A stretch of DNA of 62,887 nucleotides, filler included, from Sphacelaria rigidula (Eukaryota): assembly GCA_964200075.2 (NCBI GenBank). It is 6 parts of 6 records of this genome, joined end to end, with 100 filler letters (N's around TTAATTAATTAA, not from the genome) between each part and the next. Parts side by side here need not be neighbours in the genome. Positions count along the whole stretch, not along the records: positions 31,495 to 41,892 come from CAXNAA020006578.1; 5 more parts are not named here. One strand, given 5' to 3'. Shown here piece by piece: positions 10,987 to 60,113 of this stretch; position 1 is the stretch's first letter; every line of letters starts with the position of its first letter. Under the pieces are notes generated by a model. The model ran no database searches and had not been told where the DNA came from. It saw only the letters and a list, made by a program, of their open reading frames with translations. The position numbers and the translations under genes are program-made.

Positions 10987-11637
10987 GCGCGTTGCACTAC
11001 AGTAGACTAAGTATTGTTCAACAGCCCACCGCGAAACCGGTTCTCAACACAGCTACGGCGGAAGTGGCCATACAGGGCGTGATCGTTGGTTCAGACTGGA
11101 TGAAGCGCCTCGCATGGGCACTACTGGCGAAACAACCCCAGGCGTGGGCCTAACCCTTACCCCCGTTGTGTGTGTATGCAGCTTTATTGTGGGGCAACGG
11201 TATATCTCAGCAGACTGCTGAATGATGATGCGTTTCGAAGATCGTTGGCATCTGCCGACGCATTGGATCGTTTCGCTGACGGCGATCGTCGCCGGCGCAA
11301 CAGTATGAAGTCTCTCTCAGATACTCAACAAGAGGCGCTCGAAAACTCGATGACTAGTCCAAATGAGTATGTTTCCAGCATGCTTTGGTACGTGCTCTGT
11401 AGCGCTTAGACGCAAGTAGGGGTTGCTCTAAAGATGCTGCACAATAAATGACGGTGGCTCTTCTGTTGGACTCCTCACCATCGTGCTTTCGCTGCCACGC
11501 AGAAACTTCTGCGTTAGGGGCACATGATCGAAAGTGGTTGCGAATCCCGAGCCTTTTGAACAGAGTAAATGAAATTTCGATGGCCCGTTGAACCTTAATG
11601 AAATGTTGAACCTCGAAAACGAATACAAGCTGTTCTT
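10987..11637 (+). repeat. Dispersed ~650-bp non-coding repeat (probable non-autonomous TE); second copy at 43296-43986
   Basis: Collinear similarity from gcgcg.tgcactac...gcggaagtggccatac...tttcgaagatcgttggc.tctgccg...cgcaacagtatgaag...gtaaatgaaatttcgatgg to ...gctgttc. Confidence 0.85.
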
Positions 11638-14338: not shown

Positions 14339-14624
14339 TAGACCCCTACTGGACTCAGAACAAGTTCACAAGACTGCTCCAAGGGCTTCCTCCTTCGCTA
14401 GGGCTTGGAGGCTTCGACACAGTTGTTGTTCACAAACTCACAGTCTTCGTTATCGGAAGTAATCTTGCACCTCCTTAGACATATATACTGGCAACCAGTC
14501 ATGGTCATACTCAAGAGAAAATCCCATGACCTGATATCATGATTCAAAGTTTATATCCAAACCTCTATGGATCAACCTGCAGCTCCTCATGCATCTGCAC
14601 GTGTACTAGAGGTGGACTACTCTA
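14339..14624 (-). repeat. 3' LTR of gypsy element 1
   Basis: About 18 mismatches to 18667-18952 by manual count (~94% identity). Termini TAGA...TCTA. Weak PPT-like AGGGG just inside. Confidence 0.92.
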
Positions 14625-15608
14625 CAGCACCCCTAAAACTCAGCACTACTCGAAGTAGAAAGCGAGTTTGACAAACAGTAGACACCGACTAACACGTTCA
14701 TGCTACCTTTGTCCGCCTGTTAGTGACACATGACTATGCAATGTCATGTTCACAAAGCAAATGATCATTTACAAAACGCTGAACAACGACACTTGAACAC
14801 AGCGTCTCAATCGAATTCAGTGAAGTCAACAATTCAGTCAACGGCAATTTCCCGTCGTGGCAAACTTGCACAAAGCAAACGCGCCAAGGATAATACCATT
14901 TCGAACCGTATTATTCGATCATATCACGCACTCAAAGCTTGATACCGTACTTTGTCTACAAACGTGCCTGCACCTTTTGACTCAGTCCCAACTGACGCAG
15001 CTCAGCACAAATATGCGGTGCTCCAATATGCGGTGCTCCTTCCAGACAAATGGGCACACCATCCACATTCTCCGTTTTTCAGATGCGAAACACCATCCAT
15101 GTGCTTATCCAAGGACATGACAAGCCATCAAAATATGTGCCACAGTAAAAGATCACTGTATCCGCGCACGATTTCTTTCATCGTCAACCTCTGGAAATAC
15201 TCACGTTATACTTGTTCACATATAAGCCTACGCATTTCGCAGTTTCCGCTCACTTTCACGCCAACAGCAGCAATCACCATCTCCTACAGCCAGTTTCTGC
15301 AAACCGCACAAAAATGATTTCACTTTTGTTTTTTGCGAAGAGTAATATACGAGATTTACTTCATTCAGCACATAGCAGTGTACTGAAAACTGTCTCACTC
15401 TGACTCTTCAGACACCATGCACATCAGTCGGAGATGCATGCTAATATTTCACTCAGCAGCTTCTTTGCAGAAACCACCATGTATCATGCGTGCCAACCAG
15501 AGCAACACAACACACAGATCCAGGAACCACACCACAACCACCTACAATCGTCCACAAAACGATTCAGGTATACAAGTCACAATGTGCTTTCTCATTCTCA
15601 ACTAGCAA

Positions 15609-18398: not shown

Positions 18399-18666
18399 CT
18401 GACATAAGCTTAGTAAATTTAAATGTCACCTCATCGCCTGCATCGCTCCCACCTCCTTTCCTGCGCGCTGCCATTCTTCCTTAGCTGCATGCAATGCTTT
18501 CAGCCAACGTAGCCGTCCCTCTGTTCAATGAGCTGCAACGAGCTGCCTCGCGTTACGGACTGCACATCTCTCTGTGTACAATACAAAAATGCTTGTGCAG
18601 AGACTGCCCGCAGCTGAAACAAACCTTTGCCAGAAACCAGCGGGTTCCCTGAATAAACGTTCGTTA

Positions 18667-18952
18667 TAGACCCATACTGGACTCAGAACAAGGTCACAAG
18701 ACTGCTCCAAGGGCTTCCTCCCTCGCTAGGACTTGGAGGCTTCGACACAGTTGTTGTTCACAAACTCACAGTCTTCGTTATCGGAAGTAATCTTGCATCT
18801 CCTTGGACACATATACTGGCAATCAGCTACGGTCATACTCTAGAGAATATCTCATGACCTGATATCATGATGCAAAGTTTATATCCAAACCTCCATGGAT
18901 CTACCTGCAGCTCCTCATGCATCTGCACGTGTACTAGAGGTGAACTACTCTA
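18667..18952 (-). repeat. 5' LTR of gypsy element 1
   Basis: Direct repeat of 14339-14624, same length. Confidence 0.92.
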
Positions 18953-19692
18953 CAGGACGCAATACCCAACTCAAAGCAATCGTCTGGCGGAAATACGGCC
19001 TACAACAAGGGCGGTATAATTGGTCATTCCCAGGGGAACACTAGACCACGAGCAACGGAACGACACAGGAGAACGCACCCGTGTCGCCAGCTGACCAGGC
19101 CGCGCCGCGGGATAGGTCTAGAACAAACAAACGAACACATCCACATAAATTGTCGAAATGCATTAACTCACCTCGACCTAAAACAGTCTTCGTGCATAAA
19201 TATGGCCTACAACAGGGGCGGTATAATCAGCAGTACACGGTGTGTCGTAGCAGCTCAAGTATAGGACTACGATACAACCGGTGTTGGGGGGGTACGATCT
19301 AATATCTGACCTGATCGGGGTGGGTGGGGGAGGCTGGGAAGTAGACAGGGCAGCGGCATATGGAACGGGCACGTGGGCTGTGTCCGAAGGCATTTCTCCC
19401 AGAGAAAATGTTCGAGCTCAGGTATTATTTCCATAGAACAGCAAAATATTATACTTTACACTGAGGAGGGGGCACATCGTGCGCTAGAAAACCCTGCGCG
19501 GTTACGGTGCCATTTCTCTCTCCTTGACAAGGGACGGGGACCATCTGAGACCATAGTAGTAGTCAGCATCAGAAGTTTTCAGAATCCGTAGTTGTTGTAG
19601 TTTTCAAGTTTTTCTCGAGTACTGTTCTTCATAACCAATTGAAAGAGGTGACGCCGGTAGATTCAGGGGGAAAGCGTAGGCTTCGATCAAAC

Positions 19693-20896: not shown

Positions 20897-20996
20897 NNNN
20901 NNNNNNNNNNNNNNNNNNNNNNNNNNNNNNNNNNNNNNNNTTAATTAATTAANNNNNNNNNNNNNNNNNNNNNNNNNNNNNNNNNNNNNNNNNNNN
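20897..20996. other. Artificial 100-bp contig spacer
   Basis: N-TTAATTAATTAA-N linker. Confidence 0.97.
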
Positions 20997-21718: not shown

Positions 21719-21995
21719 GGTCGCCCCGGTGGCTCAGTTGGTAACCTCGTAACCTTCTGATGGTTGAGTGGNNNNNNNNNACTTAACAGTCGACGAGGGA
21801 AAGGTACTGCTGAACCACTCTCGCGATAAAAACGAAAGGCAAGCACCGCAGAAGGAAGGTGGGGTATTCAAAATAAATAGAAAAGAAAAAGCTCTTGTGT
21901 TCACTTTCCTCCTGTGTGATCCCGGCTGATGCGCCCACACATACCGAAAAGTGTAGACTGGTGCCCAGAATAAATGGGACTACAAAACACACTCG
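21719..21995 (+). mobile_element. SINE family A, copy 2 (internal N gap)
   Basis: ggtcgccccggtggctcagttggtaac head, family body and acacac tail. Confidence 0.8.
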
Positions 21996-23819: not shown

Positions 23820-26800
23820 ATGAAACGATATCTCCTACCCAGTACAGCGATATTTCCCGACGAAAATGACGCAAATCAACTCCACGCTCCCATGTAACTT
23901 GCATGATACTCTTTCAATGTGTTTGAGAGATTACCGCTATCTTACCACCACGACCGCGGACCAGTTGATGGCCCGAAATCCTATCTACCGCAACGCGTTC
24001 CAGGGGTGCGTTCGCATCCTCGACCGTCACATGATACGGCGGAGTTTTGATCGCATACTTGGTCAACACATACTGGCTAAGCCCCAGCGGCAGTTGTTTG
24101 GGCATATCCCAGGATTCATGAGAGGGGATACACGGTTTGCATCGTAGCATCGAGACGGGATTTTTCGGTTTTAAACCAGGTTCATCCGTGGGAAAATCCC
24201 AATACAAAATGTTCGCTCTCACCGGACTCTTGTCGGGTGCGGTAGCGCTTGGACCAACAGCTAAACTTTCCCAAGGACCAGTCCAATTCAAGGATAGTTT
24301 CGCCTTCAATACTTTGCCCAAAGAGGATAATTTTGAGCTAGCCCGTTGATTGATGGTCTTCACATCGTTATATACCCATGCCTATTGGCCTACCTCCCAC
24401 ACCGGGCGGTTCTGTACCACATCATCCAACATCGAGTTCGCCCTGGCCACCTTGGTGGAACTGATGTGGTTCTGTTCTCGTACCACTTCATATGCAAGAC
24501 GAAGGCGATTGTTAACCGACGAATGATACTCTACAACATCATGATCCAGACTCTGATGTCCGCCTGTATTTTTGCATTCGGATACCGTTAAAGGTAACCT
24601 AGGCATGCGACCAATATGAACTTCATTCGGTGACAATCCCGTAGCGGCATTTACTGAATTGTTATAATTCATTTGGACAAGAGGCAGATGCAGATCCCAG
24701 TCCATCTGTCTCTCATTTGCCACAGTAGCAAGCATCTGTGCCATCGTATGGTTCACTCGTTCCGTTCCACCATCGGTGAGAGGTCCTGATGGCGCCCAAA
24801 TGAGTCGATGCCTGTGAATGGCACTCGTGTAGAACTCATGGGCGCAGGAGCATCGGGACATAGATGCGGATGGGTTCATCACCTAGCAAGCGGGGATGTC
24901 GACCTGTAGGCTTTCCCCTGGGAAGGGCTGCTGTGGGCCGGCGAACTAACAGAACTACCCCATCATCATCCGTATGCAGCATACCTTTCCGCGAAAGTTC
25001 AGTAACTCCGTCCTGTGTGGGGGCTTTGAGAGTCCCGACGGGCAAAAGAATTCGGTTCCTGAGAATGGACATGGGCAACCTTTGGATAGATGATGAATAG
25101 CTGATATACAAGCAGGTTCTGCCTGTTGTTCCCGGGCCTAGTCGACGAGGGAGAAGAGAATCAAGCGTTTCTTGAATACGCCATCTGTTGAAGCGTCTAC
25201 TTCGCGTCGGATCGGGTCGGGGTGCGGGTTGCAAGAAGCGGTGATGTTGGAATTAAGGGTGAGCCTACCAGGTGGTGTATTCTCAGACGGAACGTTAACG
25301 TCTACTCCTGCGTCGATTAGCGTAGTGGGTGTTGTGGTGGTGTTGTTAATCTCCTCACCGAGGGGGGGGGGGCACAGCCTTATGGTTGGCAGGAGCGGCA
25401 CGGTCGGGGTCGACTTTCTGGAGGCCTTGCGCCGAGGAGGTTGAGGAGGCGCAAGGAAACTATCGGGGACCGGAGTGGGGGCAGGGAGGGGAAGGTCAGG
25501 ACAAGATGAGGCTAATTTGGTGGCCGTTTCGGTGGTCCGCCGTCCACGAGTCCTACTCGACATCAAATCTCGAACTCGAACTGGTAAGACGGAGTCAGCA
25601 AAGGACAGTTCTACATCTGCTACGAAAACCATGCGCTGGCCAGTTGCACGAAAATAATCATAGCCAACAGTATTCGTAGACAGTCCATTCCAAACTGGTA
25701 CAACGATTGACGTTGCAAGCTGCCTAGAACTGATGCGTGGGCTGTGGTCGTCAACCCACCCATGCCTAAAGCCGGCGTTTCTCTCAGTGAAAGTGGTGTG
25801 TAGAGACTACTATGTCCATTCCTGCTAATGAAACATACAACGTCTTCGGTGGGATCGGTGATACGTCCCATGGGGGATTCATCGATAGGTTGAAACACGG
25901 GATCTCATGAATTGGGGATGGATCTTTTCTTAGGGATGAGAAACTCGGAGAATGAAAATCTTCGTATCCACACCAAATCTACGAGATATTGTTCCACTTC
26001 TTCACCTACTGATAGCTGTTGACAAGTGCTACACGCCATCGGAATTTGGATTTCGATCACTGAAATGTTGGGTTTCTAGGTGAAAAACCAATTCTGGGGA
26101 ATTCCGGGTGTCCGAACGGACGCCAAAACGGTTCCGAAATTGGTTTTCACCTAGGACCCCAACATTTCGGTGATAGAGATCCAAATTTCTATGGCGTGTA
26201 GCAGTTGTCAATAGCTATCAGTAAGTGAAAAAATGGAACAATATTTCGGAGATGTCGTGTGGATACGAAGATTTTGATTGTCCGGGTTTATCATCCCCAA
26301 TAAAAGATCCATACCCAATTTGTAAGATCCCGTGTTTTGAGCTGGTGTGGGCAAGCGTGACAGAAAGACGGCGTTTGCATTTTGCGGACCTGTGCGATAT
26401 TTCAACTGGAAGTTGTAAGACGACAGGATTTCGAACCAGTGTTGTACCCTAGCGTTGTGTTCCGCCATTTTGGCAAGGCTTTTCCAAAGACGTATGATCC
26501 GTATAAATCACAAACGGGATGTCATACAAATACTGACGCAGACGTCGCATGCCCTGGACAACTGCGCCGGCCTCTTATTCGATGACAGACCAATTCTGTT
26601 CATTTGGAAAAGTGGTGCGACTCAGATATACAATGGGACGAAAAGTAGCATCGTCTTGCTCCTGTTCTAATGTGCAGCCAAACCCAATTTTGGAAGAATC
26701 TGTGTGGAGACGGAAAGGGCGGGAACCATGTTCCGCTGCCGACCAGTCGGGGAAGACGAGAATCGGTGGGCGCGAAAGGGTGTCGAGAAGACGGCGGACG

Positions 26801-31394: not shown

Positions 31395-31494
31395 NNNNNN
31401 NNNNNNNNNNNNNNNNNNNNNNNNNNNNNNNNNNNNNNTTAATTAATTAANNNNNNNNNNNNNNNNNNNNNNNNNNNNNNNNNNNNNNNNNNNN
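31395..31494. other. Artificial 100-bp contig spacer
   Basis: N-TTAATTAATTAA-N linker. Confidence 0.97.
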
Positions 31495-32220
31495 ACCTTT
31501 GTTCACGTCCCGCATTTCCCCCTCTAGCCCGTCCCGTTCCTCCTTGCATAGTTCACATTCTGCCACTATATGACTTCTGCACTCTTTTCCCTTGCCACAG
31601 AGGCAGTTATGTCCATCTACTTCCTCCTTTCGACTACTGGTATATCTCTTCCTTCTTTCTGGCAGGTCCAGGACCCCCACCCGAAATCGCAGTTTCAGAT
31701 TTTTCGCAGCGTCTATTAGGCCATGCAAATATGCTTTCATTCCAATCCCTTCTCTCAACCACCCGTATATCTCCAGGTGTTTTTCCTCGTCTACCTTGCG
31801 TCTGAGCGCTCCTTTTCCCCTTATTTCTACCATATATCATATTTTTGGTTTGTGCCCCGCGTCTTCACCTGTGGACAGTATTTCGTCTTGGTTTCCGCAT
31901 ATCTCCTTCCACACTTTCTCGACTTCTATGCCCCCTTATTCCAGCCTGCCATTTCGTACTTCTCTTCCATACAGCCCTATCAACTATAGCTGACAATTTC
32001 TTTCTCTGCATGTTCTTTACCTTATATTGCCGTCGCAATTTCCTCATGTCCCTGTTTGTTTCAAGTGGGCACATTCCCAACCCTGCTCTCAAAACTGTAT
32101 TACTCGTCGTTTTCGAGCATCCCAAGTATCTTCTTTGCTACTGCCATCTGTACTATTTCCAACCTCTCCACCAACTTCCACGTTTCCCTCCTATACTTCT
32201 CCTGCATATAGCAGGAAACG
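31495..32220 (-). mobile_element. LINE (non-LTR) ORF2 C-terminal fragment, frameshifted
   Basis: Post-RT motif LGCSKTTSNTVLRAGLGMCPLE and C-terminal LKLRFRVG.LDL...C.CG..KEC.SHIVAEC zinc-knuckle-like motif. Confidence 0.75.
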
Positions 32221-32519
32221 GTATTGGTAAGGCGAGCCTACGTCTGTGACCACGGGTTCGCGAGATCGGACTAATGTGCGGAAATAATAGCAATAATAAT
32301 AATTGCAGCTTTGGTGCGATTACGTCCATCAGGATACATATCCTAATCTTAGTGTCTAGGTGCGGGTCTCTGAATCACGTCCACGTCCAACTTGCCTATC
32401 TGTGCCTCACCCTTTTGAAGGGGAGGAGTTGAAAGTGGGAACGAAAAACTGTGTATACAACCTCGTATATATATGTACAACGCTTTGTTCTCCTTCAACT
32501 TATTTTTCTGTTATTTACT

Positions 32520-32693
32520 TTTTGTGTACGTCGTAGTCTACTATGTCGTTCTGTTCTACTTTTTCTTCTTTCTTTTCTTTTTCTTCGGCGAGTGTGTCAA
32601 TTCTGTTTTGTCTTGGGTACGTCTATCATGCGACCACGGCTGGATCTCTGGGGGGTCATTTAAAGCGCGACAATCAAATCAGAATCAAATCAA
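32520..32693 (+). mobile_element. 5'-truncated retroposon 3' end with (AATC)n tail; other copies at 47083-47136, ~53750-53812, 58310-58400 (-), 60790-60962
   Basis: Shared core catg.gaccacggctgga.c.ctgggggg.tca.ttaaag.gcgacaatcaa(tc)n. Confidence 0.75.
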
Positions 32694-32806
32694 TGTATGT
32701 AAGGAATAGTAGCGGCCTTACTGGAAAGGCAAGCCTACGTCTGTGAGCATGGGTTCGAATTATCGGGCTCATGTACGGAAATAGATGAAAACTCCCCTTC
32801 TTTCAC

Positions 32807-33312
32807 CTGTCTTCCGCCTCACGCGTCCGAACCCTCAGCCTCTCTAGCTCGCTCTTCAGTCTCCGGTTGTACGAAATTAACCACGCATCCACCCCTGCCT
32901 CCACGTCTGCCCCCTCCCCACCTTCCGCTAACCGCCCTTTCTTAGCATCATCACCATAATCACCAAACGTCTCCACATCAGATCCGCTGTTTTTGGAACC
33001 GATCCGCTGCGACCCGCTTTGCGGATCATCGTCGCGCGAACCGGTCATATCTTCTTCCCCATCTTCTCCTGCTACGGCTGTGTTGTTGCCACGGCTGCCG
33101 TGCTGTGGTGCGGATCTTTGATCCGTGAGGCTTGTGTGCCGATGGGTATCGAATTCCGAGTTGGACTCATCCCGTGTACGAGTAGTGTCATCATCCACGC
33201 TAGTGCCGCGGTTGTTGACGTGGAGGTGGTCGTCGCTTGTTGTTGCCTGGGCGTTTAATCCTCCTCCATAGATGCCTTCCAAGATCCGGATCTTTTCCCT
33301 CATGGCTTCCAC
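32807..33312 (-). CDS. Internal exon of a CASP (CUX1-related Golgi coiled-coil protein, COY1-like) gene
   Basis: Acceptor cgcag|GTG and donor AG|GTGAAA. VEAMREKIRILEGI...VDAWLISYNRRLKSELERLRV resembles the CASP pattern V..LR.K..IL...L.LL.KNR.L..EL..L+, with a long low-complexity insert. Confidence 0.6.
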
Positions 33313-34258
33313 CTGCGAATGTTCGAATGTTGTTACTCATCACTGCATGTACATGTATCATTTCACATTTTTCACCACTTTTGCCGAGTTTTCTCTGGCG
33401 GCAAGGCATTTTTTCACGCGCTTTTTTCGCAGCGCACCAAGAAGGCTCAGCGGTACATTACCGTTTAGGTTTGAGTGCCATCTGATACCTGTGGCACGTG
33501 TTCTGGCCACCGAAAGTCGCTCAAACTGGCTCTTTTTCGCATGAAAACCTTTTCAAGATTACGTGAAACTCGAAACGGGAACCCGAACCACAAAAAGCCG
33601 GTTAAAGATCATGGAAAACTTCAAACAGGATAACTTTTGGCGCGGTATTCTTTCCCCATGTTCCTCTTTGTCGCGTTCTCATTCCTTTGGGAACACGAAC
33701 ACACCGGTTGTGCCGTCAATGTCACGAGAACATGAGAGCAAAGCAGTTGAATACAATTGAACACTGCCTTGGCCTTGGTCAGCAACGAACACAAGACCGT
33801 GCAATGGGCCGTTGGTGAGATGAACAAGGCACAGCAGCACGGCAGCACAGGAATGCTTGGCCACAAAAAGCAATCACCCTGTTGAAACAAAGTCCCGGTG
33901 ACGTGGAAGCCACAGCAATTTACAAACAACATGCCAAGAATATTCCACGCATTCCAATTTTTTCTGCAAGTGCCTCCCGCTGTCATGTCTTTGTGGCACG
34001 AGAGCAAGTTCGCACTCTTGCGCTTCGATAATACCACACACGTCCTACGCCCGCGGTTCCGCAGTCGGCCTCTGTCCGAATTTCCATATTTCCGCACGAC
34101 ATCCGATCACACATGCGATATTTTGTACAGTCACGATCACTACCGTATATCGAGATACAACAGCCTCTCTCATCCATATATTTTCGATTTGTGTCACCTC
34201 CGGGAGGCCCGTACCAACCTCCCGAAGGGGAACCTCGCAACTATTATAACATCATTTA

Positions 34259-34620
34259 TGAGGAAGGCGTATCGCTACGGTAGACAGGGACCTACGGGTA
34301 AGACTGTCGTTGGAGATGTCCTGACGCCGAAGAAACTCCGAGGCTGGGCGATGATTCCCTCTTGTGTAATGCAGGCAAGAAGGAGATCAGACGATAGAAG
34401 TGATCCACCGTGAGGCGGACCCTTTTCCTAGGGGCGAAGTTCGGGCACCCTGATACCAGTCACCTGGCATCCCCCCGACTTGTCTAGTATCGTTGGTCTT
34501 ACAGGTTCCTGGTATTTTAATCCTTTCGAACCGTTCCTACCCCGTACCTGCATGCGCTGGTTCTTCATACATGTGTCGCATCAATCTCTGGTGTGTCATT
34601 GCAAAGAGGTGTCTTCCACA
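34259..34620 (-). repeat. 3' LTR of gypsy element 3 (TG...CA)
   Basis: TGAGGAAG...CTTCCACA. Adjacent cttccccct is the PPT (AGGGGGAAG on -). Roughly mid-80s % identity to the other LTR by eye. Confidence 0.92.
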
Positions 34621-37600
34621 CTTCCCCCCTTTATGCGCCTCAAGCCCACCAGGACTGTGGCTGATGGGACGAGGTTATCATCGTCTTCGCTGATGATATA
34701 TTCGTGGAAACGCCTTTGGGTGATAATCATTGATTGAGTCACGCCGCTGCTAATCGCAAACGTAGCCCTCCTCTATACTGTGGCTTGAGTAAACATCTCC
34801 AGCGAACTTAGTCACCAGTGGCCAATAACAGTGTATGCATTTGCAAAACCTTTGATTTCGGTATTTTTTGCCATGTAACTGTGTGATATGTGACATATTT
34901 CCATTAGATGCATTTGCACTTTGGAGCTGGTTGCATCTGCTAGTTACACATGATGGGCACTGGGACACTTTTCGATTCACGGAGTCCTGGGTTATTTATC
35001 CTCGGATCCTGGGATGCATTCGGATCCGCGGACAACTGAGTAAGACAAAGTCCTCGCAAGGCGGTGGGCATGATGTTTTATCCTGTGAGCATTATGCTCT
35101 TCGGCGAAACATCATCGGAATGACCCTTGCTTGTTGTCAGCACCTACCCCCATTGCTGAAAGGATACCTTCCTTGGGAAGTTGTACCCTCATCACCGCTG
35201 ACATGTCAGATGTAACTCCGTTCGTGTCTGTATTGTTCTGACATCGTTTTATTTGAAATTCTCACTGATTTCCGAATTTTAACTCGAGGCTACTGTTCAA
35301 CCCTTGAGCGTGTTGCTTGGACGCTAGATCAGTCTGTTGAGCAACCACTTCTGTTTCCGTTTCCTGGTGTTTGTGGATTGCGGATCTGGCCGTGGGCATT
35401 CTGCTAGCCCCTCATCATGTCGATACTTCTCAATGTGATATTTACATTGTGGTACTCTATCGGCTCGGTAAATTAGGTCGCCTGCTGGGCTGTAGCCTCC
35501 GATATTTATAGTTATGAAGACTTCTCCGACCTGGTCCTGAAGTGTGGCCTCTGGAGCGTGGCCTACCACTTTTTCCACCACGTCACGCTCTATTTTAGGT
35601 CACGTTTCGTCTGTTTGGTCTATCTGCGGAAAACGTATCCGATTGCCTAGAAACAACTCGCTCAACTTATCGAAATCTGGTGCTGGCGGTGTCTCTCTAG
35701 GGTGGTATTTCTTCAAGTGAGCGAGATGTACAGACACTTCTTTGGATTTGTCGCCCAGTTTGATTCTATAAACAACCGACGATAGTCTCTCGCTTATAGT
35801 GGAAGGTCCTCTCCATGGTGATTGGAGCTTCGGCTTTGGGACCCTCTGAGTCTTGGTACGATTTGTAAAGAGGTACTTTTTGACCGGTTTAAACACTGCG
35901 AACGACTTTGACTTGCTCTTCTTGTTTTCTTGCTCATTCGCTCTTTCTCGTAAAGTCTGTCTCTCAAGTTCAAATCCCAACTGTAAGTGTTGCCATATTT
36001 CTTTTGAAAACTCTTCGGATATTGCTGCTTGGCTTTCCTCCGGCATGCCGAGGATGACGTCGACCGTCAATCTGGGCTGTCTTACGAATATCAAAAAGTA
36101 CGGTGTCTCGTGCACGGTGTTGTGGTATGAGGTTTTGTACGTCATTTACACGAAGAAAGAAATCACGCCCAATTTTTGTTTCCAACAGACATATGCATTG
36201 CTAGCATCGCGTGCATAGTAGAGTGAACTCGCTCCGGCACTGGATTACCTTGCGGGCGTAACGGTGTCGTGCGAGTTTTATTGAAACCCAACTCTTGTTG
36301 CAGTGCGTCTATTAGCTTGCTTTCAAATTTGGCTCCTTGGTCGGAATGCAGCTTTTCCGGGATGAAAAATGTAGTGAAGACTCTACCAATGAGAATTTTG
36401 GCTATCGAGGTAGGCTCTTTTTTCGGTACCAAAATGAGTAGAGCATACCTGGTGAGGCGGTCCATTACGAACAGTATATATTTACATAGTACTTCAGCGT
36501 GTGACATCGAAGATGTTTTGTATTCGACCAGGTCCACCGACACTCTTTCGTATGGCCGTTCTACCGGAAAGTGTTCCACCGGCAATTGTTTCCGGTTGTG
36601 GGCCGTTTTTCGGCGTTGGCAACCTTGACATCTAAGGCACTAATCCTTTCTATCGCGGTTCATCATTGACGGCCACCAATATTTCCGCCGGATATTGTCG
36701 TAGGTTCGCTTAAAGCCCAAGTGGCCTCCGGACAGTGCATGGTCGTGATATGAGTGTAGCACAAAGCCTACCAAGGACTTTGGGAACATAAGCTGGTCAT
36801 GGAATGCACTTCGTTTTTCCATGTGTCCAGGCAGATATGATTTGAGTAGCACCCCGTCTTGTACTGAAAAGCATGACATGGATGTGATCGATACTTTCAC
36901 TGGAATTGGAGCGTCCTCTTCAGTAATATATTGGATGTGGGGTCCGTTCTCGAGTGCTTGCTCTTTTTGCAATTTTTTGCGGTCGACTGATATTAAACGT
37001 TTGTGGCGCTCGCGTATACTGATGACACGGTGAACAGCTCTCTGTCGCTTTGTGCCGGTTTCGAACTGTTAAGCTTATCAGCTGATATTTGGAACTGGTG
37101 TTGTGGTTTACTTGTTTGCAACGCGGGGCCATCCGGTACGTGACGACATGTTGGTTTAAGTAACGGCTAGATTCCAGTCTCTTGTCGCTGCTCGAAAGCG
37201 AATAGTCGTGAAAGAGTGTCCGGAATGACATGAAGTTCCCCCGGTTTGTGTCTGACCGCGAAACCGTATGATTGTAGAGCGATCGCCCAACTGGTCAACA
37301 TGTTGCTCGTATCTTGCATTGCATATTGATATCGGAGAGCTGCATGATCAGCTACACACGTAAATTGGCGGCCCCATAAGAAAGGTCTTAAATCCTGAAT
37401 GGGTGGCACGACCGCATAACATTCTTTCATAGTGGGTAAGTAGCGAGATTGAGCGTCGTTGCAACGTTGACGAAAGTATGCTACGGTTGCGTCGTCGTCA
37501 CCCTTCTTCGGGGACAGCTACGCTCCCGCGCCTCGGTCTGACGCATCGACATTTATCGTAAAGTCTTCAGTGAAATCTGGAAAATGAAGGACGGGTGCCT

Positions 37601-39844
37601 CGGTCATTATGTGTTAAATTTTCCCGACGGCTTCATGTTCAGTATTTCAGCGTTTTGACACTTGTTTCGCCGCTTCTGTCTTTGTGACATCTACCAGTGG
37701 TGTTATGTATGGCTGTAGCTCAATTTGGTATGAAATTCCGCACAAATGTATCGTGCCGAGTACTGATCGCAACTCTTTAATGTTGGTGGGTTCCGGCAAG
37801 TCGAGAATGGCTGTCACTCTTTCGTCACTCCCTCTGATGCTACCTGCGGACAGTATATGACCAGAGTACTTGACCTGGTCAGGACCGAATCGAATTTTTC
37901 ACGGTTTCAGTGTGAGACCTGCTGTTTGCAGTGCTTTGAACGTGCTTTCTAGTAGGGTGAGATGACTCTCCCAGCTTGATGAACGACAAATGATGCCATC
38001 CATATATACTAGTACACCAGTTTTGGGTCCAAAGGGTGCAAAAGCTAGAGCCATTATGCGCGAAACGATAGAGGGTGAGCATGCCAAACCAAACGGTAAG
38101 CGGTTAAACATCAATTTTCCCCTTTGCGTCAGGAAAGCTGTGTTCCCTTTTTCGCTCTCCGCCACCGGTATCTGGTGAAATGCACTCTGTACGTCGCAAC
38201 CAGTTAAAAATTTCGCTCCTGCTACCGTGTCAGTGTGACTTCCGATAGCTGGCCTGGGCCATGATTGGCGAATCAGGTTTTTATTCATTGTCGCTCATTA
38301 ATCCTTGGACCTCGAGGGTAGTCCATCTGGATCACGCATTCTGTTTGCAAGTGAAATTGATGCCGATTCGACAGCTGACCTACTCTCGCCGTCGAAGGGT
38401 TAATCCGCGCAAAACCGTGCGATTCGATCGGCCTTTGCTACTATTGTGACTGCTGATCCCTAAGTGCTGGGGCGCTGTTCGATTATGCCGTCTTTCTTCA
38501 TCTGGTCGACGCATGTGTCAATTGCGTCTTGCACTCCGGGGTTTGCTCCATATGGAGCTAGGCCCACTGGTTGCGTACCACGTTTGAGGGGAAAACGTGC
38601 TTCATCTAATAATGTACAACAACCCAACTCTCCCGGATTAAGCGAAAACACAGAGCGGTATTTTGCACAGAGATCCAGTACTTGTGAGCACTGTTCTGGG
38701 GAAAAGGTGGTATTCTCGAAAGCGTTGCGCAATGCTGGACGTAACTCTTCCCTTGAATTTTTACTCACTGACTTATTTCCTTCCGTCACGGCACTGCCTG
38801 TGGCTGCTTTTTGTCTGTTGTACCGGTGTGATATCGCCTAAAATCGTATTTCGTTTCAGGTGTACATGTCGGTTAGACGGGTTGACGATTTGTATTATTG
38901 CCGTCTTAGTTGTTGCCGACCAAGTGCATACTGTCCTTGCAGCAATGATGCATATGAATGCTTGGGGAACATCAGGCGATCGAATGTCTTCCTCGGTTAT
39001 TATGCGTCGCTCTACGACAGCTGGTGTTGTTGACGGGGCATTTTCCGTCTTGACCAATACTGCCATCTCGCTTCGCGGCGGTACACTGCATGTTTTCATG
39101 AAGGAAGCTGGGATGACGTCCATGAGACAGTTCACACTAACTACAGAACACTGTGCTGTTTCGGGGTGTGTTGGATCCTGTGAACCCTGTTGTTTTCGAT
39201 GTGATGCTTCAAGTTTTACTGTGGAATCACGGAATGTCAGTTCTTCTGCTTGCCAGTCGAGTATGGCTTTGAAAGCACTTATACAAAGTAATAGAATTGT
39301 CTAGTAATCAACAATCCGGACCTAGATTAGGTTGTACAGACGCTTCTACTGGCAAGGTTTGAATCCTCAACTTGAGCCCGAAACGGAAGATTTCTAAAAT
39401 TATCATGGGGGAACCGTGCGCGCTTCTATGATCGATAGATTCTGGCGGTGTAGTTTTGATTTCAGCTGCATTTGATGCTGAACATTGGCTGATACATGGT
39501 ACATCTGCTGCGGAATCGATTGTGATACATTTACTCTGGCTGTGACTCTAACGCGCACTGATGCACAGGAAAACGCTGTTGGCGTGTCTGTATACCTGAC
39601 GAGTGATGATGCGTTCGTTGTACGAATCCTAACGGTGATCGGTAAAGCTTGGACTTGAAAAGGAAGACTGGTGTTTCGATTTTCAATTTTCTGTGATGAG
39701 CTATTCACAAAACCCTCCTGCGGAGCTAAAAACATACGTTACGTCTGTTCGACGCATGCGCCACCTGTACTCTGCTTATCGTTGCTATGCTTCTGCTCTA
39801 GCTCATACTGTACTCTGTTCACCTCTACGCGAGACTTTTTACGT

Positions 39845-41017
39845 ACTCCTCGTGGTGGGCCTGCTGTACTCCCAGAAAATGAAAATTTCCAATCTTACGA
39901 GCTAGAGGGTTGACGATTTCGCGTCTTCTCGTTTCCCTCGATTGTGTGCGTAAAGATTTACTGTTTTTGCCCTGCCTAGACAAGGGAGCCTCCCTTGGGC
40001 GTCTTCATGGGTTGTACTTTGTGGCAAACTCTACGTGGCTCTGTGCAAGGCGGCAGTCGGCCATCTCGTGCGTGTTCCTACACCTGCAGGGTGCGTATTC
40101 ACAACGATTCGACTCCTTCGGCTTTCCGCTAGTCTGCTTGTCGCTGCTCGTATTCTTATCGCTATCAGCCCTGAAGTGGACTTCTTTCATTTCTACACCT
40201 GCTCTACTTCTGTGCCTGTCACGGCTGGTAGACCGTTTCTCGGCACGTCTCCGTTTTCCCTTGATCGCCTTCAAGTGGGATTGAAGGTCCGTCAGGATCG
40301 CGCCTTGATCGGTTGTCACTTCAGCCAGCTCTGGACAGGGAGTTTGCAATTGCGGCCGAGACATCGGAGGTGCCTCCTCCAGTTTGGTTTGGCCATGTGC
40401 AGAGGTTATTTCCTGGTGTTTTTCGGCTCCACCTGTCACTGTTTGAACTTGAAGTTCAAACAGCGACAGCTAGAGACAAAAGACACAAGCAAAATAACTC
40501 CTGCGCATGGCCAAACCAAACAGGAGACACCCCCCATGTCTCGGCCGCAACTGCAAACTCCCCACGTCCAGAGCTGGCTGAAATGATAGCCGATCGAGGG
40601 AGAACGAGGACGAGCCGAGAAACGATCTACCAGCCGTGACAGGAGCACGAGTTGAGAACGTGGAGAAATAAAGAGAGTACGCTTCAGGGATAATATCGAT
40701 AAGAATACGAGCAGTGACAAGCAGACTAGCGGAAAACCGAAAAAGTCTAATCGTTGCGAATACGCACCCTGTAGGCACGTACAAGAACACGTACGAGACG
40801 GTAGACTGTCGCCTTATGTAAAGTCACGTAGAGTCTGCTAAATAGTGCAACCCATGAAGACGCCCAAGGGAGGCTCCCTCGTCTGAACAAGGCATACGCA
40901 GTATATCTTCACGTACAAAATCGAGGGAAACGAAAAGACGCGAAATTCGTCAACCCTCTGGCTCGTAAGATTGAAGAGAGTGATTTTTATGGAAGTACAG
41001 TCAACCCAGCACGAAGT
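39845..41017. repeat. ~1.17-kb imperfect palindrome (inverted duplication of 3' gag) centred at 40451
   Basis: Centre ctgtcactgtttgaactt-g-aagttcaaacagcgacag. Arms are collinear out to ~39845 and ~41017. A manual 100-nt sample shows 17 mismatches; the right arm has a ~40-bp deletion. Confidence 0.92.
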
Positions 41018-41018
41018 G

Positions 41019-41035
41019 TCCCACTGCTGTCACCA
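41019..41035 (-). promoter_or_regulatory. Primer binding site, probably tRNA-Leu
   Basis: The minus strand reads TGGTGACAGCAGTGGGA four nt after the LTR, complementary to a ...UCCCACUGCUGUCACCA tRNA 3' end of the Leu type. Confidence 0.75.
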
Positions 41036-41039
41036 AATA

Positions 41040-41405
41040 TGAGGAAGGCGTATCACTACAATAGACAGGGACCTACGGGTAAGACTATCGTTGGAGATGT
41101 AGTCCTGACGCCGAAGGAACTCCGAGGCTGAGCGATAATTTCCTCTTGCTTAATATAGGCAAGGAGGGGGTCATACTATAGAAGTGATCACCGTGAGGTG
41201 GACCCTTTTCCTCGGGAAATGTTCGGCCACCCTAATACCGGGCTCTTCCTGGCATAAGCCCGAGTTGTCTAGAATCGTTGGCCTTACAGGGTCCTGGTAT
41301 TTTAATCCTTTCGGACCGTTCCTACCTTGTATCTGCATGCGCTGGTTATTCATACATGTGTGGCATCAATATCTGAAGTGTCACGACAAAGAGGTGTCTT
41401 CCACA
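41040..41405 (-). repeat. 5' LTR of gypsy element 3
   Basis: Direct repeat of 34259-34620. TSD not recognisable (attta vs cacta). Confidence 0.92.
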
Positions 41406-41892
41406 CACTAGTATTGCTATTATCATTTATCACTGTTACAATAATATCATCATCATCATCACCATCATCATCATCAGCATTAGTATGCCAACCCAAAATA
41501 CCTGCTTCCGGGTATTACCCAACGGAACGAGGCCTTGGAATGAACTTTGCTTCTTGCGTACTCATGTTCCCAACGACGGGAAGCAGACCGTCCTCAAAGA
41601 AAGCTCTATCCGCGGTGATTCGGACCCCGCGATTCCTATCAAGGACGTCATTAGCGGGTCTGCTTTTTCCCCCGAAATTTCCGAATCCTGTGCAGAAAAA
41701 AAAATCTCTCCGAAAAATGTGAGAGCAGTTGCCTCAACCAGGCCAAGGTCACGCTATAGGTCATCTCAAGTCATAACAAAGATTTCTCCGAAAATCTAAT
41801 GTCGGAGTTTTTTTTCCGGCTTTTTTTTTTTTGAGAAGTCAAGGGTACACGTCAAGAAGTAAAAACGACACACCGATGTCCACGGGTGATCG

Positions 41893-41992
41893 NNNNNNNN
41901 NNNNNNNNNNNNNNNNNNNNNNNNNNNNNNNNNNNNTTAATTAATTAANNNNNNNNNNNNNNNNNNNNNNNNNNNNNNNNNNNNNNNNNNNN
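41893..41992. other. Artificial 100-bp contig spacer
   Basis: N-TTAATTAATTAA-N linker. Confidence 0.97.
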
Positions 41993-43086: not shown

Positions 43087-43295
43087 ATGCTGGCGACAGT
43101 ACGACAGGCAAACCCGATCATAGCTAGCTTTCGTCGCTCTACTGGGCTGGCTGACGTCTGTACATAGGTCGCCCGGCGGAGCAACATATACCAAATTTCG
43201 CAATCTTCGTAAAAACAAAACAGTTCGCTTTTTTCAACTACATAAACATGATTGAAATGACTGGAAATTAAAAAGAAACGGCTCGAGTTTTTGAA

Positions 43296-43986
43296 GCGCG
43301 GTGCACTACAACAGTAGTGTTGTTCAACAGCTCCACCGCGGAACCGGTTCTCATAACAGCCACGGCGGAGGTGGCCATACAAGGCGTGAGAGCTGGTTCA
43401 GACTAGATGAAGCGCCTTGCATGAGCACTACTGGCGAAACAACCCCAGGCGTCGGACTAACCCTTTCCCACTTTGTGTGTGTCTGCAGTTGTATCGTGGG
43501 GCACCCGTTTGATCTAACTGACCACTGTACTGTGGTTATGCTGTACTGTGGTGATGATATATCTCAGCAGACTGCTGAATGACGCTGCGTTTCGAAGATC
43601 GTTGGCGTCTGCCGCCGCAGTGGATCGTTTCTCTGACGGCGGTCGTCGCCGGCGCAACAGTATGAAGCCTCTCTCAGATACACAACAAGAGGCGCGGAAA
43701 ACTCGATGACTAGGCCAAAGAAGTATGGTTTCAACATGCTTTGTTACGTGTTCTGCAGCGCTTCGACGCAAGGGTTGCTCGATAGATGCGGCACAATCAA
43801 TGAGGGCGGCCTTTTGTTTGGGCTGCACACCATCATGCTTTCGCTCCAGTGCTGAAACTTCTGGGTCAGGGGCACATGGTCGAAACGCTTGCGACTCCAG
43901 AGCCTTTCGAACAAAGTAAATGAAATTTCGATGGTCCGTTAAACCTCATAAAAATGTTGAACCTCAATAACGATTCCAGGCTGTTC
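43296..43986 (+). repeat. Second copy of the ~650-bp dispersed repeat
   Basis: Collinear with 10987-11637. Confidence 0.85.
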
Positions 43987-52390: not shown

Positions 52391-52490
52391 NNNNNNNNNN
52401 NNNNNNNNNNNNNNNNNNNNNNNNNNNNNNNNNNTTAATTAATTAANNNNNNNNNNNNNNNNNNNNNNNNNNNNNNNNNNNNNNNNNNNN
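52391..52490. other. Artificial 100-bp contig spacer
   Basis: N-TTAATTAATTAA-N linker. Confidence 0.97.
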
Positions 52491-58985: not shown

Positions 58986-60113
58986 GGACAACGTGCCTCT
59001 TCCCCGGTACCCGCCTCATATGCTGCTATCGAGGATTGGAAGAAAAAATACTACACCCCGTCTACTCCCGTCGAATTTACTTCGCAACTCACCCTTCCTC
59101 GCTTCCAAGGATGGAAACCAGATTCTACCCAAGAAACACCCGTGTCTGGAGTCTGAAGTCATGCTACGATGGGATGGGGGGGGGGGGGGCGAGCAATCAT
59201 TTATTGCTGGTTTTTACCGGGTTACCATTTTCCTCGCACCCCCTTCGACACGGATGAACGNNNNNNNNGCTGGCCTTAGCCGTGTGACCATTGACCACGC
59301 ATCCCTTTCGAGACGGAGGATGGGATGGGGGGGGGAAGGGGGGGATACTTTTGATCTCGCATGCCATGGTCATTTGACCGTTGACCTCCCCTCCCTACAA
59401 AGCCGGGACGGAGAACGCCGAGTTCTAGCCGGACCAGGCTTGCAATCAATCACCAAGCGCGGAGCGTCGTCATGTATTCGACGAGTTGCATGAAGAAGGG
59501 TGAGCTGCATCCTGCTAACATAGGTCGGCCCGAAGCATACTGGTTATCTTGCATTTGGATGACAGCCTCGAATGAGTTGCTTCATTTTGTGTTATCGCCA
59601 CTTCCAAAGACAACCACGGGTTCGCCACTCACTGCCGATGAGGCTCATAGGTATGTCAGACGACCTATCACACTCGCGGTGCGCTTGCATTTGATTGAAA
59701 ACGGTGTCAAGCAGGATGGAAGAGCGTTACTTATTGGTAACAAGCGCGTTCGAACAACCGATGTTGCTTTCAACGACGATTTCAAGTGAAATTTTGTGGA
59801 AGAAATGGCCCAACCCCCCCCCCCCCCCCCCCCCCACCGTAGCCCCTGCCGGGGTTTCAAACGCCCCCCCCCCGTTTGTATAGGGGCTACTGCTGTATCG
59901 TAGCATGACCCCTTGTCGGTATCCGAACCCGCAACTTTTCGTGGAAACTGGCGATATGTGTGCCATTTTTAATTTAGACCACCAGAGCGCGGTGTAACCC
60001 GCAGTATACGTGTGCAACAGCGTATGACAGGTGTGTTTCAGGTCGGACACAGAGGGTGGAATGCGAAATCAAGTCCCCCGGGAAGACTCCGGAAAGGAGA
60101 GTGGAGGTGCAAC

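What the first reader, a model, noticed from the sequence alone, without database searches (positions are those of the whole stretch)
39845..41035. Gypsy element with a spacerless ~1.17-kb hairpin directly behind its PBS: candidate 'killer'/silencer retroelement
Seen: immediately downstream of the 5' LTR and tRNA-Leu PBS, the normal leader and 5' gag are replaced by an inverted copy of the 3' gag region. It folds back at a single base (40451) onto its template, with arms of ~570-600 bp and ~83% identity in a 100-nt sample. LTRs, PBS and PPT are all retained. Known: a fold-back derivative of a transposon (maize Mu killer) produces hairpin RNA that silences its family in trans. Inference: LTR-driven transcription would begin with a long dsRNA against the family's gag. 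Because the cis-signals are intact, the hairpin element could itself have been mobilised by autonomous copies. Arm divergence looks similar to LTR-LTR divergence, so the foldback may be as old as the insertion or older.
Basis: partly seen in the sequence, partly recalled or inferred. Interest (0 to 1): 0.8.

Follow-up and report, generated by a model that had tools for sequence, protein, structure and literature searches.

The report
Retrotransposon fossil with internal fold-back hairpin
An old, broken jumping gene, probably in a brown alga, carries a mirror-image copy of the back half of its own coat-protein gene right behind its replication primer site; this is most likely a copying accident made when it inserted, and although it could once have made silencing RNA, nothing shows that it did.

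Summary
A degenerate Ty3/Gypsy-type LTR element lies on the minus strand (34259-41405). It has two 362/366-nt LTRs, an 18-nt PBS, a PPT and RT-RNaseH-integrase. Directly after the PBS comes a palindrome (arms 41017->40452 and 40450->39845, centre 40451). The arms are 83.8% identical over 556 sites.

Exact contigs from three samples in two studies bridge the apex. One also bridges the PBS junction into the LTR. All sit at single-copy depth, so this is not an assembly artefact.

Full-length gag relatives (420 aa; the closest named one comes from the brown alga Sphacelaria rigidula) show that both arms start at gag residue 273. Residues 1-272, which include the capsid domain, are absent from the whole window.

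Arm divergence (K2P 0.186 +/- 0.021) is not distinguishable from LTR divergence (0.138 +/- 0.021; p = 0.13). The fold-back is therefore about as old as the insertion.

[quoted passage not shown] The product then decayed neutrally.

The 'killer/silencer' and 'mobilised' ideas are plausible but have no support here. I found no second copy, no RNA evidence, and only two perfect duplex runs of 19 bp or more remain.

The parts
41040..41405 (-). 5' LTR (366 nt; TG...CA on the element's strand)
   Evidence: Direct repeat with 34259-34620, 87.5% identical over 360 sites
41018..41035 (-). Primer binding site, 18 nt, 4 nt after the LTR; reads TGG... on the element's strand
   Evidence: Sequence read directly. 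tRNA identity not tested: no tRNA gene in the window
40452..41017 (+). Inverted arm: a copy of gag residues 273-416 plus about 170 nt beyond gag, antisense to the element; contains stops, frameshifts and a 44-nt deletion
   Evidence: tblastn of P0005: 40448-40600, 40473-40790 and 40780-40842 on the + strand; arm alignment
40451..40451 (.). Centre of the palindrome (single base); corresponds to gag codon 272/273
   Evidence: the repeat finder I4; 21-nt perfect palindrome 40441-40461; tblastn
39845..40450 (-). Sense arm: gag residues 273-420 (zinc-knuckle-like C..C..H..C part; 154-aa open frame 40005-40469) plus the gag-pol spacer; continuous with the rest of the element
   Evidence: tblastn of P0005: 40454-40008 on the minus strand, E 1e-35; phmmer hits P0002-P0004
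38773..39738 (-). Region where the protease should lie; no family matched
   Evidence: ORFs 39403-39738 and 38773-39300 gave no retroelement Pfam hit. The placement is inferred from position only
37899..38294 (-). Reverse transcriptase fragment
   Evidence: Pfam RVT_1, E 1.2e-15
38299..38403 (.). TTAA-flanked insert of about 100 nt interrupting pol; a very high-copy repeat, not part of the element proper
   Evidence: Sequence; summed depth about 200,000 in this bin against about 65 for neighbouring exact contigs in X1, with many loose ends at 38300-38318 and 38393-38403
37167..37517 (-). RNase H fragment
   Evidence: Pfam RT_RNaseH, E 1e-16
36163..37068 (-). Integrase zinc-binding and catalytic core, in two adjoining open frames
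   Evidence: Pfam Integrase_H2C2, E 1.1e-12, and rve, E 1.6e-10
35600..36145 (-). Integrase C-terminal SH3-like part
   Evidence: Pfam Integrase_p58_C (E 2.2e-5) and SH3_Tf2-1 (E 1.3e-4), both below their curated cut-offs
34621..34632 (-). Polypurine tract (AAAGGGGGGAAG on the element's strand), abutting the 3' LTR
   Evidence: Sequence read directly
34259..34620 (-). 3' LTR (362 nt)

Best explanation
This is a single, old, dead copy of a Ty3/Gypsy-type LTR retrotransposon, probably in a brown alga, that was most likely born defective. In one faulty round of reverse transcription, DNA synthesis made a U-turn at gag codon 272/273 and copied about 570-600 nt of the 3' gag region backwards. [quoted passage not shown] The resulting DNA had two normal LTRs, so it could be integrated. 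It lacked the leader and the capsid half of gag and carried a perfect palindrome of about 1.17 kb with no spacer. Since then the arms and the LTRs have decayed neutrally to about 84% and 87.5% identity. Shown: the anatomy, its reality in independent samples, which part of gag is duplicated and which is missing, the equal age of arms and LTRs within error, and single-copy depth. Inferred: the reverse-transcription origin and the order of the two switches. When young, an LTR-driven transcript would have folded into a long perfect hairpin against the family's gag 3' region. That it ever silenced anything is not shown, and today it is most likely inert.
For: (1) The inverted arm starts within 0-3 nt of the end of the 18-nt PBS. 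That is exactly where plus-strand strong-stop DNA ends (mechanism as described in passages of PMC9278108). A random breakpoint would fall there less than 1% of the time across the 816 nt or more of replaced sequence (272 codons plus leader; my estimate). (2) Both arms begin at the same gag residue, 273, in opposite orientation, around a single central base. This is the mark of a fold-back copy and not of two independent insertions. (3) Arm K2P is 0.186 +/- 0.021 and LTR K2P is 0.138 +/- 0.021, Fisher p = 0.13. Both pairs were therefore reset to identity at about the same time, as one reverse transcription would do. (4) Decay is symmetric. Over the 148 gag positions 273-420, the left arm alone is derived at 26 and the right arm alone at 19. 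At 5 positions the arms share a state absent from the four outgroup proteins, 83 positions are unchanged, 9 are ambiguous and 6 were skipped. (5) Both arms carry frameshifts, and the right arm also has stops and a 44-nt deletion, so there is no sign of selection. (6) Self-priming of minus-strand DNA by reverse transcriptase after RNase H action is documented in vitro (passages of PMC6088434). Proviruses with internal inversions occur naturally: 2 of 78 HIV-1 proviruses in PMC9278108 (passages). (7) Exact contigs sit at single-copy depth (62-76 in X1) across apex and junction.
Against: No target-site duplication could be recognised: the 5-nt flanks ATTTA and CACTA match at 2 of 5 positions. The two LTRs might therefore not stem from one insertion, which would weaken the age comparison. 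The point estimate of arm divergence is 1.35 times that of the LTRs, and at non-CpG sites the excess is nominally significant (74/469 against 33/312, p = 0.043). This could mean the fold-back predates this insertion, or that the inverted arm was copied from a slightly different co-packaged template. An intramolecular snap-back normally leaves a loop of a few bases, yet here the centre is one base, so the exact switching mechanism is unclear. I found no microhomology at the PBS/arm junction. No experiment or read data bears on the mechanism itself.
Confidence: 0.55

Rival explanations
1. Post-insertion chromosomal rearrangement. A normal copy inserted, and later a double-strand break inside gag was repaired by fold-back (hairpin-primed) synthesis and end joining. 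This deleted the leader and 5' gag and added an inverted copy of 3' gag.
For: Fold-back inversions and templated inverted insertions at DNA breaks are well documented in yeast (abstracts of PMC7467729 and PMC11724301 in the listing). No target-site duplication or second copy ties the structure to the act of insertion.
Against: The arms are not younger than the LTRs; the point estimate is older. The outer breakpoint would have to fall by chance within about 3 nt of the PBS end. The documented templated inverted insertions are mostly 5-34 bp (abstract of PMC11724301), against about 570 nt here.
Confidence: 0.2
2. A hairpin 'killer' element. The fold-back copy was transcribed from its LTR, its long double-stranded RNA was diced into small RNAs that silenced the family in trans, and, with its cis signals intact, it may have been copied by autonomous relatives.
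For: The transcript region still folds almost end to end (minimum free energy -847.5 kcal/mol for 1221 nt). LTR, PBS and PPT are retained. The arm divergence estimate lies above the LTR estimate, which is the direction re-mobilisation predicts. [quoted passage not shown] Mu killer shows the principle for a DNA transposon (abstract of PMC3440606).
Against: There is no evidence of transcription or small RNAs from the arms. The exact locus is single copy. No second apex exists in the window. The only relatives found are canonical gag proteins with a normal N-terminal part. The arms decay symmetrically with stops and frameshifts. Only two perfect Watson-Crick runs of 19 bp or more remain, 32 and 20 bp. 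The leader, where packaging signals usually lie, is deleted, and a perfect 570-bp hairpin next to the PBS should hinder packaging and priming (inference from general retrovirology).
Confidence: 0.12
3. Two elements. A second copy of the family inserted head-to-head into or beside the first, and deletions trimmed both.
For: Antisense nested insertion of an LTR element into itself has been observed for EVD in Arabidopsis (passages of PMC11624286).
Against: Both copies would have to be cut at exactly the same gag codon (273), to the base. There is no third LTR or other remnant of a second element in 34259-41405. The arms share 5 derived states.
Confidence: 0.03
4. Assembly or sequencing artefact (chimeric palindromic read).
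For: Spacerless palindromes are a known artefact of some library types (recalled, not from a call).
Against: Exact contigs from three samples in two studies bridge the apex, at the depth of their neighbours. The arms differ by 16%, mostly by substitutions, which no artefact of one molecule would give.
Confidence: 0.01

Closest known systems
Mu killer of maize (natural inverted duplication of part of MuDR; Slotkin et al. 2005, cited in PMC11624286; abstract of PMC3440606 seen)
   Same: A naturally arisen inverted duplication of part of a transposon's own coding sequence that could give a long hairpin RNA homologous to the active family.
   Different: Mu killer derives from a DNA transposon, is thought to be transcribed by read-through from a flanking gene, and has genetically proven heritable silencing activity. 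Here the element is an LTR retroelement with its own LTR upstream, the fold-back sits flush against the PBS, the arms are 16% diverged, and no activity is shown.
Defective retroviral proviruses with internal inversions, and self-primed minus-strand DNA (PMC9278108 and PMC6088434, passages read)
   Same: DNA products of error-prone reverse transcription that keep both LTRs and can integrate. Reverse transcriptase can extend a folded-back 3' end.
   Different: Those cases are somatic proviruses of a retrovirus or in-vitro products of strong-stop DNA. None of the passages I read describes a spacerless inverted duplication abutting the PBS or a germ-line fossil of one.
5'-inverted LINE-1 insertions made by 'twin priming' (recalled, not from a call)
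   Same: An inversion at the 5' end of a retroelement created during the reverse transcription that made the insertion.
   Different: That is target-primed reverse transcription of a non-LTR element, and the inversion has little or no duplication, so no long hairpin results.
Antisense nested EVD insertion in Arabidopsis giving potential LTR hairpins (PMC11624286, passages read)
   Same: An LTR retrotransposon arrangement with inverted homologous segments, considered as a trigger of silencing.
   Different: That arrangement arose from two insertions, its inverted parts lie 1.9-2.6 kb apart, it concerns the LTRs, and its authors did not test it as a small-RNA source.
hpRNA loci of Drosophila, rearranged endogenous pararetroviruses and LTR palindromes of maize Sireviruses (PMC10317233, PMC9868043, PMC4728375; abstracts in listings only)
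   Same: Inverted repeats derived from selfish elements or their targets that feed RNA interference.
   Different: These are host loci or short LTR palindromes with measured small RNAs, not a gag fold-back inside a full LTR element.
Foldback/MITE-type elements (two are present in this window at 189-466 and 25893-26337)
   Same: Long inverted arms of similar identity (86-88%).
   Different: Those have 27-41-nt central spacers and make up the whole element. The palindrome studied here is internal to an LTR element, encodes gag on both arms and has no spacer.

Membership tests
Ty3/Gypsy (Metaviridae-type) LTR retrotransposon | Two direct LTRs ending TG...CA | tested here: met
   34259-34620 and 41040-41405, 87.5% identical; TGTGGAAG...CTTCCTCA on the element's strand
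Ty3/Gypsy (Metaviridae-type) LTR retrotransposon | Domain order RT - RNase H - integrase | tested here: met
   RVT_1 at 37899-38294, RT_RNaseH at 37167-37517, Integrase_H2C2 and rve at 36163-37068, all on the minus strand; 5 of 12 ORFs scanned carried a retroelement domain
Ty3/Gypsy (Metaviridae-type) LTR retrotransposon | PBS after the 5' LTR and PPT before the 3' LTR | tested here: met
   18-nt TGG... motif 4 nt after the LTR; AAAGGGGGGAAG abutting the 3' LTR. Which tRNA primes it was not testable (0 tRNA genes)
Ty3/Gypsy (Metaviridae-type) LTR retrotransposon | Complete gag (capsid plus nucleocapsid) | tested here: not met
   Only residues 273-420 of the 420-aa relative are present, twice; residues 1-272 have no match in the window (best E 2-8). 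The capsid domain (Retrotrans_gag) is seen only in relative P0004, 1 of 3 relatives scanned. The copy is therefore a defective member
Ty3/Gypsy (Metaviridae-type) LTR retrotransposon | Aspartic protease between gag and RT | tested here: inconclusive
   No Pfam hit on the ORFs at 38773-39738; the region is degenerate
Ty3/Gypsy (Metaviridae-type) LTR retrotransposon | Target-site duplication of 4-6 bp | tested here: not met
   Flanks ATTTA and CACTA match at 2 of 5 positions; at about 13% divergence this is weak evidence either way
Mu killer-type trans-silencing hairpin locus | Inverted duplication of transposon sequence | tested here: met
Mu killer-type trans-silencing hairpin locus | One transcript running through both arms | not testable with these tools
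   No run on record as RNA holds the stretch. Contigs cannot show transcripts, and the run guessed to be RNA gave no exact contig inside the arms
Mu killer-type trans-silencing hairpin locus | Small RNAs from the arms and silencing of active family members | not testable with these tools
   No small-RNA data were reachable and the single run-search and read-laying runs were used
Mobilised non-autonomous hairpin lineage | Two or more copies sharing the apex and the PBS/arm junction at different loci | tested here: inconclusive
   One apex in the window. Exact contigs are at single-copy depth. The whole genome is not held. The tables were truncated, so diverged copies cannot be excluded
Foldback/MITE element | Inverted arms form the ends of the element, with flanking target duplication | tested here: not met
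   The arms are internal, bounded by the PBS on one side and the gag-pol spacer on the other

The most novel reading that the evidence does not exclude
Faulty reverse transcription itself made a ready-to-fire silencer. The fold-back copy had an intact LTR promoter and a perfect 570-600-bp hairpin against the family's gag. On this reading it acted as a natural 'killer' allele that shut down this Gypsy family through the 21-nt small-RNA pathway of a brown alga that lacks DNA methylation. If such born-defective hairpin copies arise regularly, they would be a built-in self-limiting route for LTR families. They might also contribute to the 5'-biased small-RNA peaks reported on LTR elements in Ectocarpus.
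Probability: 0.1. Interest if true: 0.8.

Novelty: new variant of a known kind. Interest (0 to 1): 0.4.

Why it matters
Natural transposon-derived hairpins that can start silencing are known from very few cases, the classic one being a DNA transposon in maize. This copy is a clean, independently confirmed fossil of an LTR element whose hairpin seems to have been produced by reverse transcription itself. The junction sits exactly at the end of the primer binding site. The copy shows that an integration-competent hairpin form can be made in a single step. It also gives a precise junction signature (PBS end joined to antisense internal sequence, plus a spacerless U-turn) that could be searched for across genomes. 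In brown algae, where transposon control appears to rest on small RNAs without DNA methylation, such copies would be natural candidates for the first trigger of silencing. As it stands, though, this is one decayed copy with no sign of activity, so its value is as a lead and a mechanistic curiosity.

Tried and rejected
- The whole genome is not held, so the apex and PBS/arm junction could not be searched genome-wide.
- The scan's earlier notes held nothing on this genome or sequence. A looser word search gave 8 unrelated findings.
- Expression: no RNA holder is listed. Run X6, only guessed to be RNA, gave three exact short contigs (41018-41168, 36884-37034, 37027-37235) at depth 2-3 and none inside the arms. 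This says nothing either way.
- The tables were truncated (167 joints, 2147 loose ends and about 18,000 pieces not shown). Diverged paralogues bridging the apex could therefore be neither found nor excluded.
- The 'opposite strands' joint 39974/40708, seen in three DNA runs, looks like a paralogous gag 3' copy that matches one arm in part and the other arm in part. I do not read it as a second hairpin.
- Protein searches: the sense-arm ORF against longer proteins found nothing, and the apex-spanning 124-aa ORF found nothing. Both rely on shared 5-residue words and are weak. The exhaustive phmmer search found 4 proteins, one of them the window's own fragment. The full gag found 3.
- The metagenome contig scan with the gag alignment gave one locus at 34% identity, too distant to show the family's normal layout, so no DNA of a canonical copy was obtained.
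- Pfam found no family on either arm ORF. Rfam found nothing in 34000-41892. There are no tRNA genes in the window.
- No target-site duplication was recognised.
- My first divergence figures were inflated by flank bases and are replaced.
- Literature: eight full-text searches turned up no description of an LTR retrotransposon with an internal gag fold-back abutting the PBS. The review of reverse-transcription-linked recombination in LTR elements (PMC6894440) has no occurrence of 'hairpin' or 'palindrom'. This covers only the held library.
- PMC1170264 (plus-strand strong-stop transfer in Ty elements) is not held.
- I looked at no supplementary files. Those of PMC12477816 may hold per-family small-RNA profiles that bear on the silencing idea.
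Full report
WHAT THE WINDOW IS. The 62,887-base window is not one continuous stretch. It is six pieces of about 10.4 kb joined by N44-TTAATTAATTAA-N44 linkers. The finding lies wholly inside the piece 31495-41892, so the linkers do not affect it. No whole genome is held for the window.

THE OBSERVATION.
- Self-BLAST and the repeat finder show a long inverted repeat centred on base 40451.
- With exact boundaries the arms are 39845-40450 and 40452-41017. They have 556 aligned sites, 90 mismatches (60 transitions, 30 transversions), 83.8% identity and 11 gap events, one of them a 44-nt deletion in the right arm.
- The central 21 nt are a perfect palindrome that occurs nowhere else in the window; 0 of 100 shuffles gave a match.
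- A direct repeat, 34259-34620 against 41040-41405, is 87.5% identical over 360 sites. On the minus strand it reads TG...CA with matching terminal inverted bases.
- The element therefore reads on the minus strand, in this order: 5' LTR (41405->41040), 4 nt, an 18-nt TGG... primer binding site (41035->41018), the inverted arm (41017->40452), the centre, the sense arm (40450->39845), pol, a polypurine tract (34632->34621) and the 3' LTR.
- Pfam places RVT_1, RT_RNaseH, Integrase_H2C2 and rve in that order on the minus strand, in short broken frames; 5 of 12 ORFs scanned carried a retroelement domain.

IS IT REAL DNA? One run search found six runs from three studies that hold the stretch. I laid four of them on 34000-41800 at 85% likeness.
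- X1 and X4: an 893-nt contig matches 39985-40877 with no difference and bridges the apex.
- X3, from a different study and labelled an algae metagenome: a 1439-nt contig matches 39898-41336 with 4 differences. It bridges the apex, the PBS junction and part of the LTR.
- In X1 the chain of exact contigs from 38377 to 41335 has depths of 62-76, so this copy is present once per genome equivalent.
- The arms differ by substitutions at 16% of sites.
An assembly or library artefact is excluded as far as contigs can show.

WHICH PART OF THE ELEMENT IS DUPLICATED?
- Neither arm ORF matched a Pfam family.
- An exhaustive phmmer search of 1.84 billion representatives with the 154-aa sense-arm ORF found four proteins. 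One is the window's own 61-aa fragment.
- Their cluster members include a 420-aa protein, P0005. P0004 is named by NCBI as an unnamed protein product of the brown alga Sphacelaria rigidula.
- P0004 carries a Retrotrans_gag capsid domain at residues 80-147, just above the curated cut-off; it was the only one of 3 relatives scanned to hit.
- tblastn of P0005 against the window matches residues 273-420 on the minus strand (40454->40008, E 1e-35). It matches residues 273-416 on the plus strand in three frames (40448->40842).
- Residues 1-272 match nothing in the window (best E 2-8).
- So the arm next to pol is the genuine C-terminal, zinc-knuckle part of gag plus the spacer before pol. The arm next to the PBS is its mirror image. 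The leader and the capsid-bearing 272 residues are gone.
The organism is probably a brown alga or a close relative. That is an inference from the one named relative and the run label, not a determination.

AGE.
- With exact boundaries, arm K2P distance is 0.186 +/- 0.021 and LTR distance is 0.138 +/- 0.021 (Fisher p = 0.13).
- At non-CpG sites the excess is nominally significant: 74/469 against 33/312, p = 0.043.
- My earlier figures (82.1%, K2P 0.208, p = 0.035) included non-homologous flank bases and should be disregarded.
- CpG is not depleted (observed/expected 0.77-1.15). This fits an organism without cytosine methylation, as reported for Ectocarpus (passages of PMC12477816).
- The four relatives served as outgroups over the 148 gag positions 273-420. 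Both arms match an outgroup at 83 positions. The left arm alone is derived at 26 and the right arm alone at 19. The arms share a state absent from the outgroups at 5 positions. At 5 positions the arms differ but both states occur in the outgroups, at 4 both arms differ from them, and 6 were skipped.
- The arms therefore descend from one sequence and have decayed at similar rates. Both have frameshifts, and the right arm also has stops and a 44-nt deletion.
The fold-back is about as old as the insertion, possibly somewhat older, and certainly not much younger.

HOW IT MOST LIKELY AROSE. Two features point to reverse transcription and away from later chromosomal repair.
- First, the inverted arm begins within 0-3 nt of the end of the PBS. 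Plus-strand strong-stop DNA ends with the copy of the PBS (mechanism as summarised in passages of PMC9278108), so this is a natural free 3' end during replication. A random break would land there less than 1% of the time across the 816 nt or more that were replaced (my estimate).
- Second, the arms and the LTRs have the same age within error. One reverse transcription resets both pairs to identity at once, so this is what that event predicts.
- I infer two non-homologous switches in one replication cycle. The first is a U-turn of the growing DNA at gag codon 272/273, perhaps at a broken template. Reverse transcriptase can extend a folded-back minus-strand 3' end once RNase H has removed the RNA (passages of PMC6088434). 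The second is a join between the end of the roughly 570-600-nt inverted stretch and the end of strong-stop plus DNA.
- The product keeps two LTRs and can be integrated. Proviruses with internal inversions are a known minor class: 2 of 78 in PMC9278108.
- Several points remain open. The centre is a single base, whereas a simple snap-back should leave a small loop. I see no microhomology at the PBS/arm junction. No target-site duplication is recognisable. The slightly higher arm divergence could mean that the inverted arm was copied from a non-identical co-packaged template, or that the hairpin copy was replicated once more.

DOES IT DO ANYTHING?
- The 1221-nt region still folds almost end to end (minimum free energy -847.5 kcal/mol).
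- Only two perfect Watson-Crick runs of 19 bp or more survive, 32 and 20 bp. Allowing G:U pairs, seven runs of 21-37 bp survive.
- When new, an LTR-driven transcript would have carried a perfect hairpin of 570-600 bp against the family's gag 3' region. [quoted passage not shown] The silencer idea is therefore reasonable as a hypothesis.
- Nothing I could reach tests it. There is no RNA holder, no exact contig inside the arms in the one run guessed to be RNA and no small-RNA data.
- Nothing suggests the copy multiplied. Depth is single copy, the window holds one apex, and the only relatives found are canonical gag proteins.
- The deleted leader and a perfect hairpin beside the PBS would be expected to hinder packaging and priming. 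That is an inference from general retrovirology.

COMPARISON WITH WHAT IS KNOWN.
- In form it resembles Mu killer of maize, an inverted duplication of part of a transposon (abstract of PMC3440606; cited in PMC11624286). It differs in element class, in having its own promoter-bearing LTR, in its likely origin and in lacking any shown activity.
- In origin it resembles inverted defective proviruses and, by recall, 5'-inverted LINE-1 insertions made by twin priming.
- It differs from the two MITE-like fold-backs elsewhere in the window (189-466 and 25893-26337). Those have 27-41-nt spacers and make up whole elements.
- Eight full-text searches and a review of reverse-transcription-linked recombination in LTR elements (PMC6894440; no occurrence of 'hairpin' or 'palindrom') gave no description of an LTR element with a gag fold-back flush with its PBS. 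This holds only within the held library.

VERDICT.
- Observation: confirmed.
- Best explanation (about 0.55): a born-defective, single-copy fossil of one aberrant reverse transcription, now inert.
- Rivals: later chromosomal fold-back repair (0.2), a once-active or mobilised silencer (0.12), two elements (0.03), artefact (0.01).
- Novelty and interest: it is a new variant of known kinds of thing and of moderate interest. Its main use is a precise junction signature that could be searched for genome-wide.

Noticed in passing
window 10399-10498, 20897-20996, 31395-31494, 41893-41992, 52391-52490: Regular N44-TTAATTAATTAA-N44 linkers split the window into six pieces of about 10.4 kb, so features on different pieces need not be neighbours in the genome. 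Short N runs also lie at 21772-21780 and 59261-59268.
   Followed up: partly
window 38299-38403: A TTAA-flanked insert of about 100 nt with imperfect CCCTT.../...AAGGG-type ends interrupts the RT region. Summed contig depth in its bin is about 200,000 against about 65 for neighbouring exact contigs in X1, with many loose ends at its borders. It looks like a very high-copy miniature transposon with a TTAA target; 'piggyBac-like' is recalled. The repeat finder found no inverted repeat of 10 nt or more.
   Followed up: partly
window 189-466 and 25893-26337: Two MITE-like fold-back repeats: arms of 77 nt or more at 88% around a spacer of about 27 nt, and 202-nt arms at 86% with a 41-nt spacer. They are unrelated in sequence to the gag palindrome.
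   Followed up: partly
window 14338-14627 and 18666-18955: A 290-nt direct repeat at 93.8% identity, 4.3 kb apart, possibly the LTRs of another, younger element.
   Followed up: no
window 10985-11635 and 43294-43986: A dispersed repeat of about 650 nt at 86% identity on two different pieces; family unknown.
   Followed up: no
window 39772-39876 and 39974/40708: Contigs at roughly single-copy depth in three DNA runs skip about 100 nt (39772->39876) and then join 39974 to 40708 on the opposite strand. This is most simply a paralogous copy of the gag 3' region that matches one arm in part and the other arm in part. A similar 100-nt skip appears at depth 182 in run X6, which is only guessed to be RNA.
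   Followed up: partly
window 41018-41168, 36884-37235: Run X6 (guessed RNA, possibly DNA) holds three short contigs identical to this copy, over the PBS/U5 part of the LTR and in pol, at depth 2-3. This could be faint transcription or DNA carry-over.
   Followed up: no
window 34000-34260: The flank left of the 3' LTR has very high summed depth (about 90,000 in X1) and AT-rich loose ends at 34235, so the element sits next to another abundant repeat.
   Followed up: no
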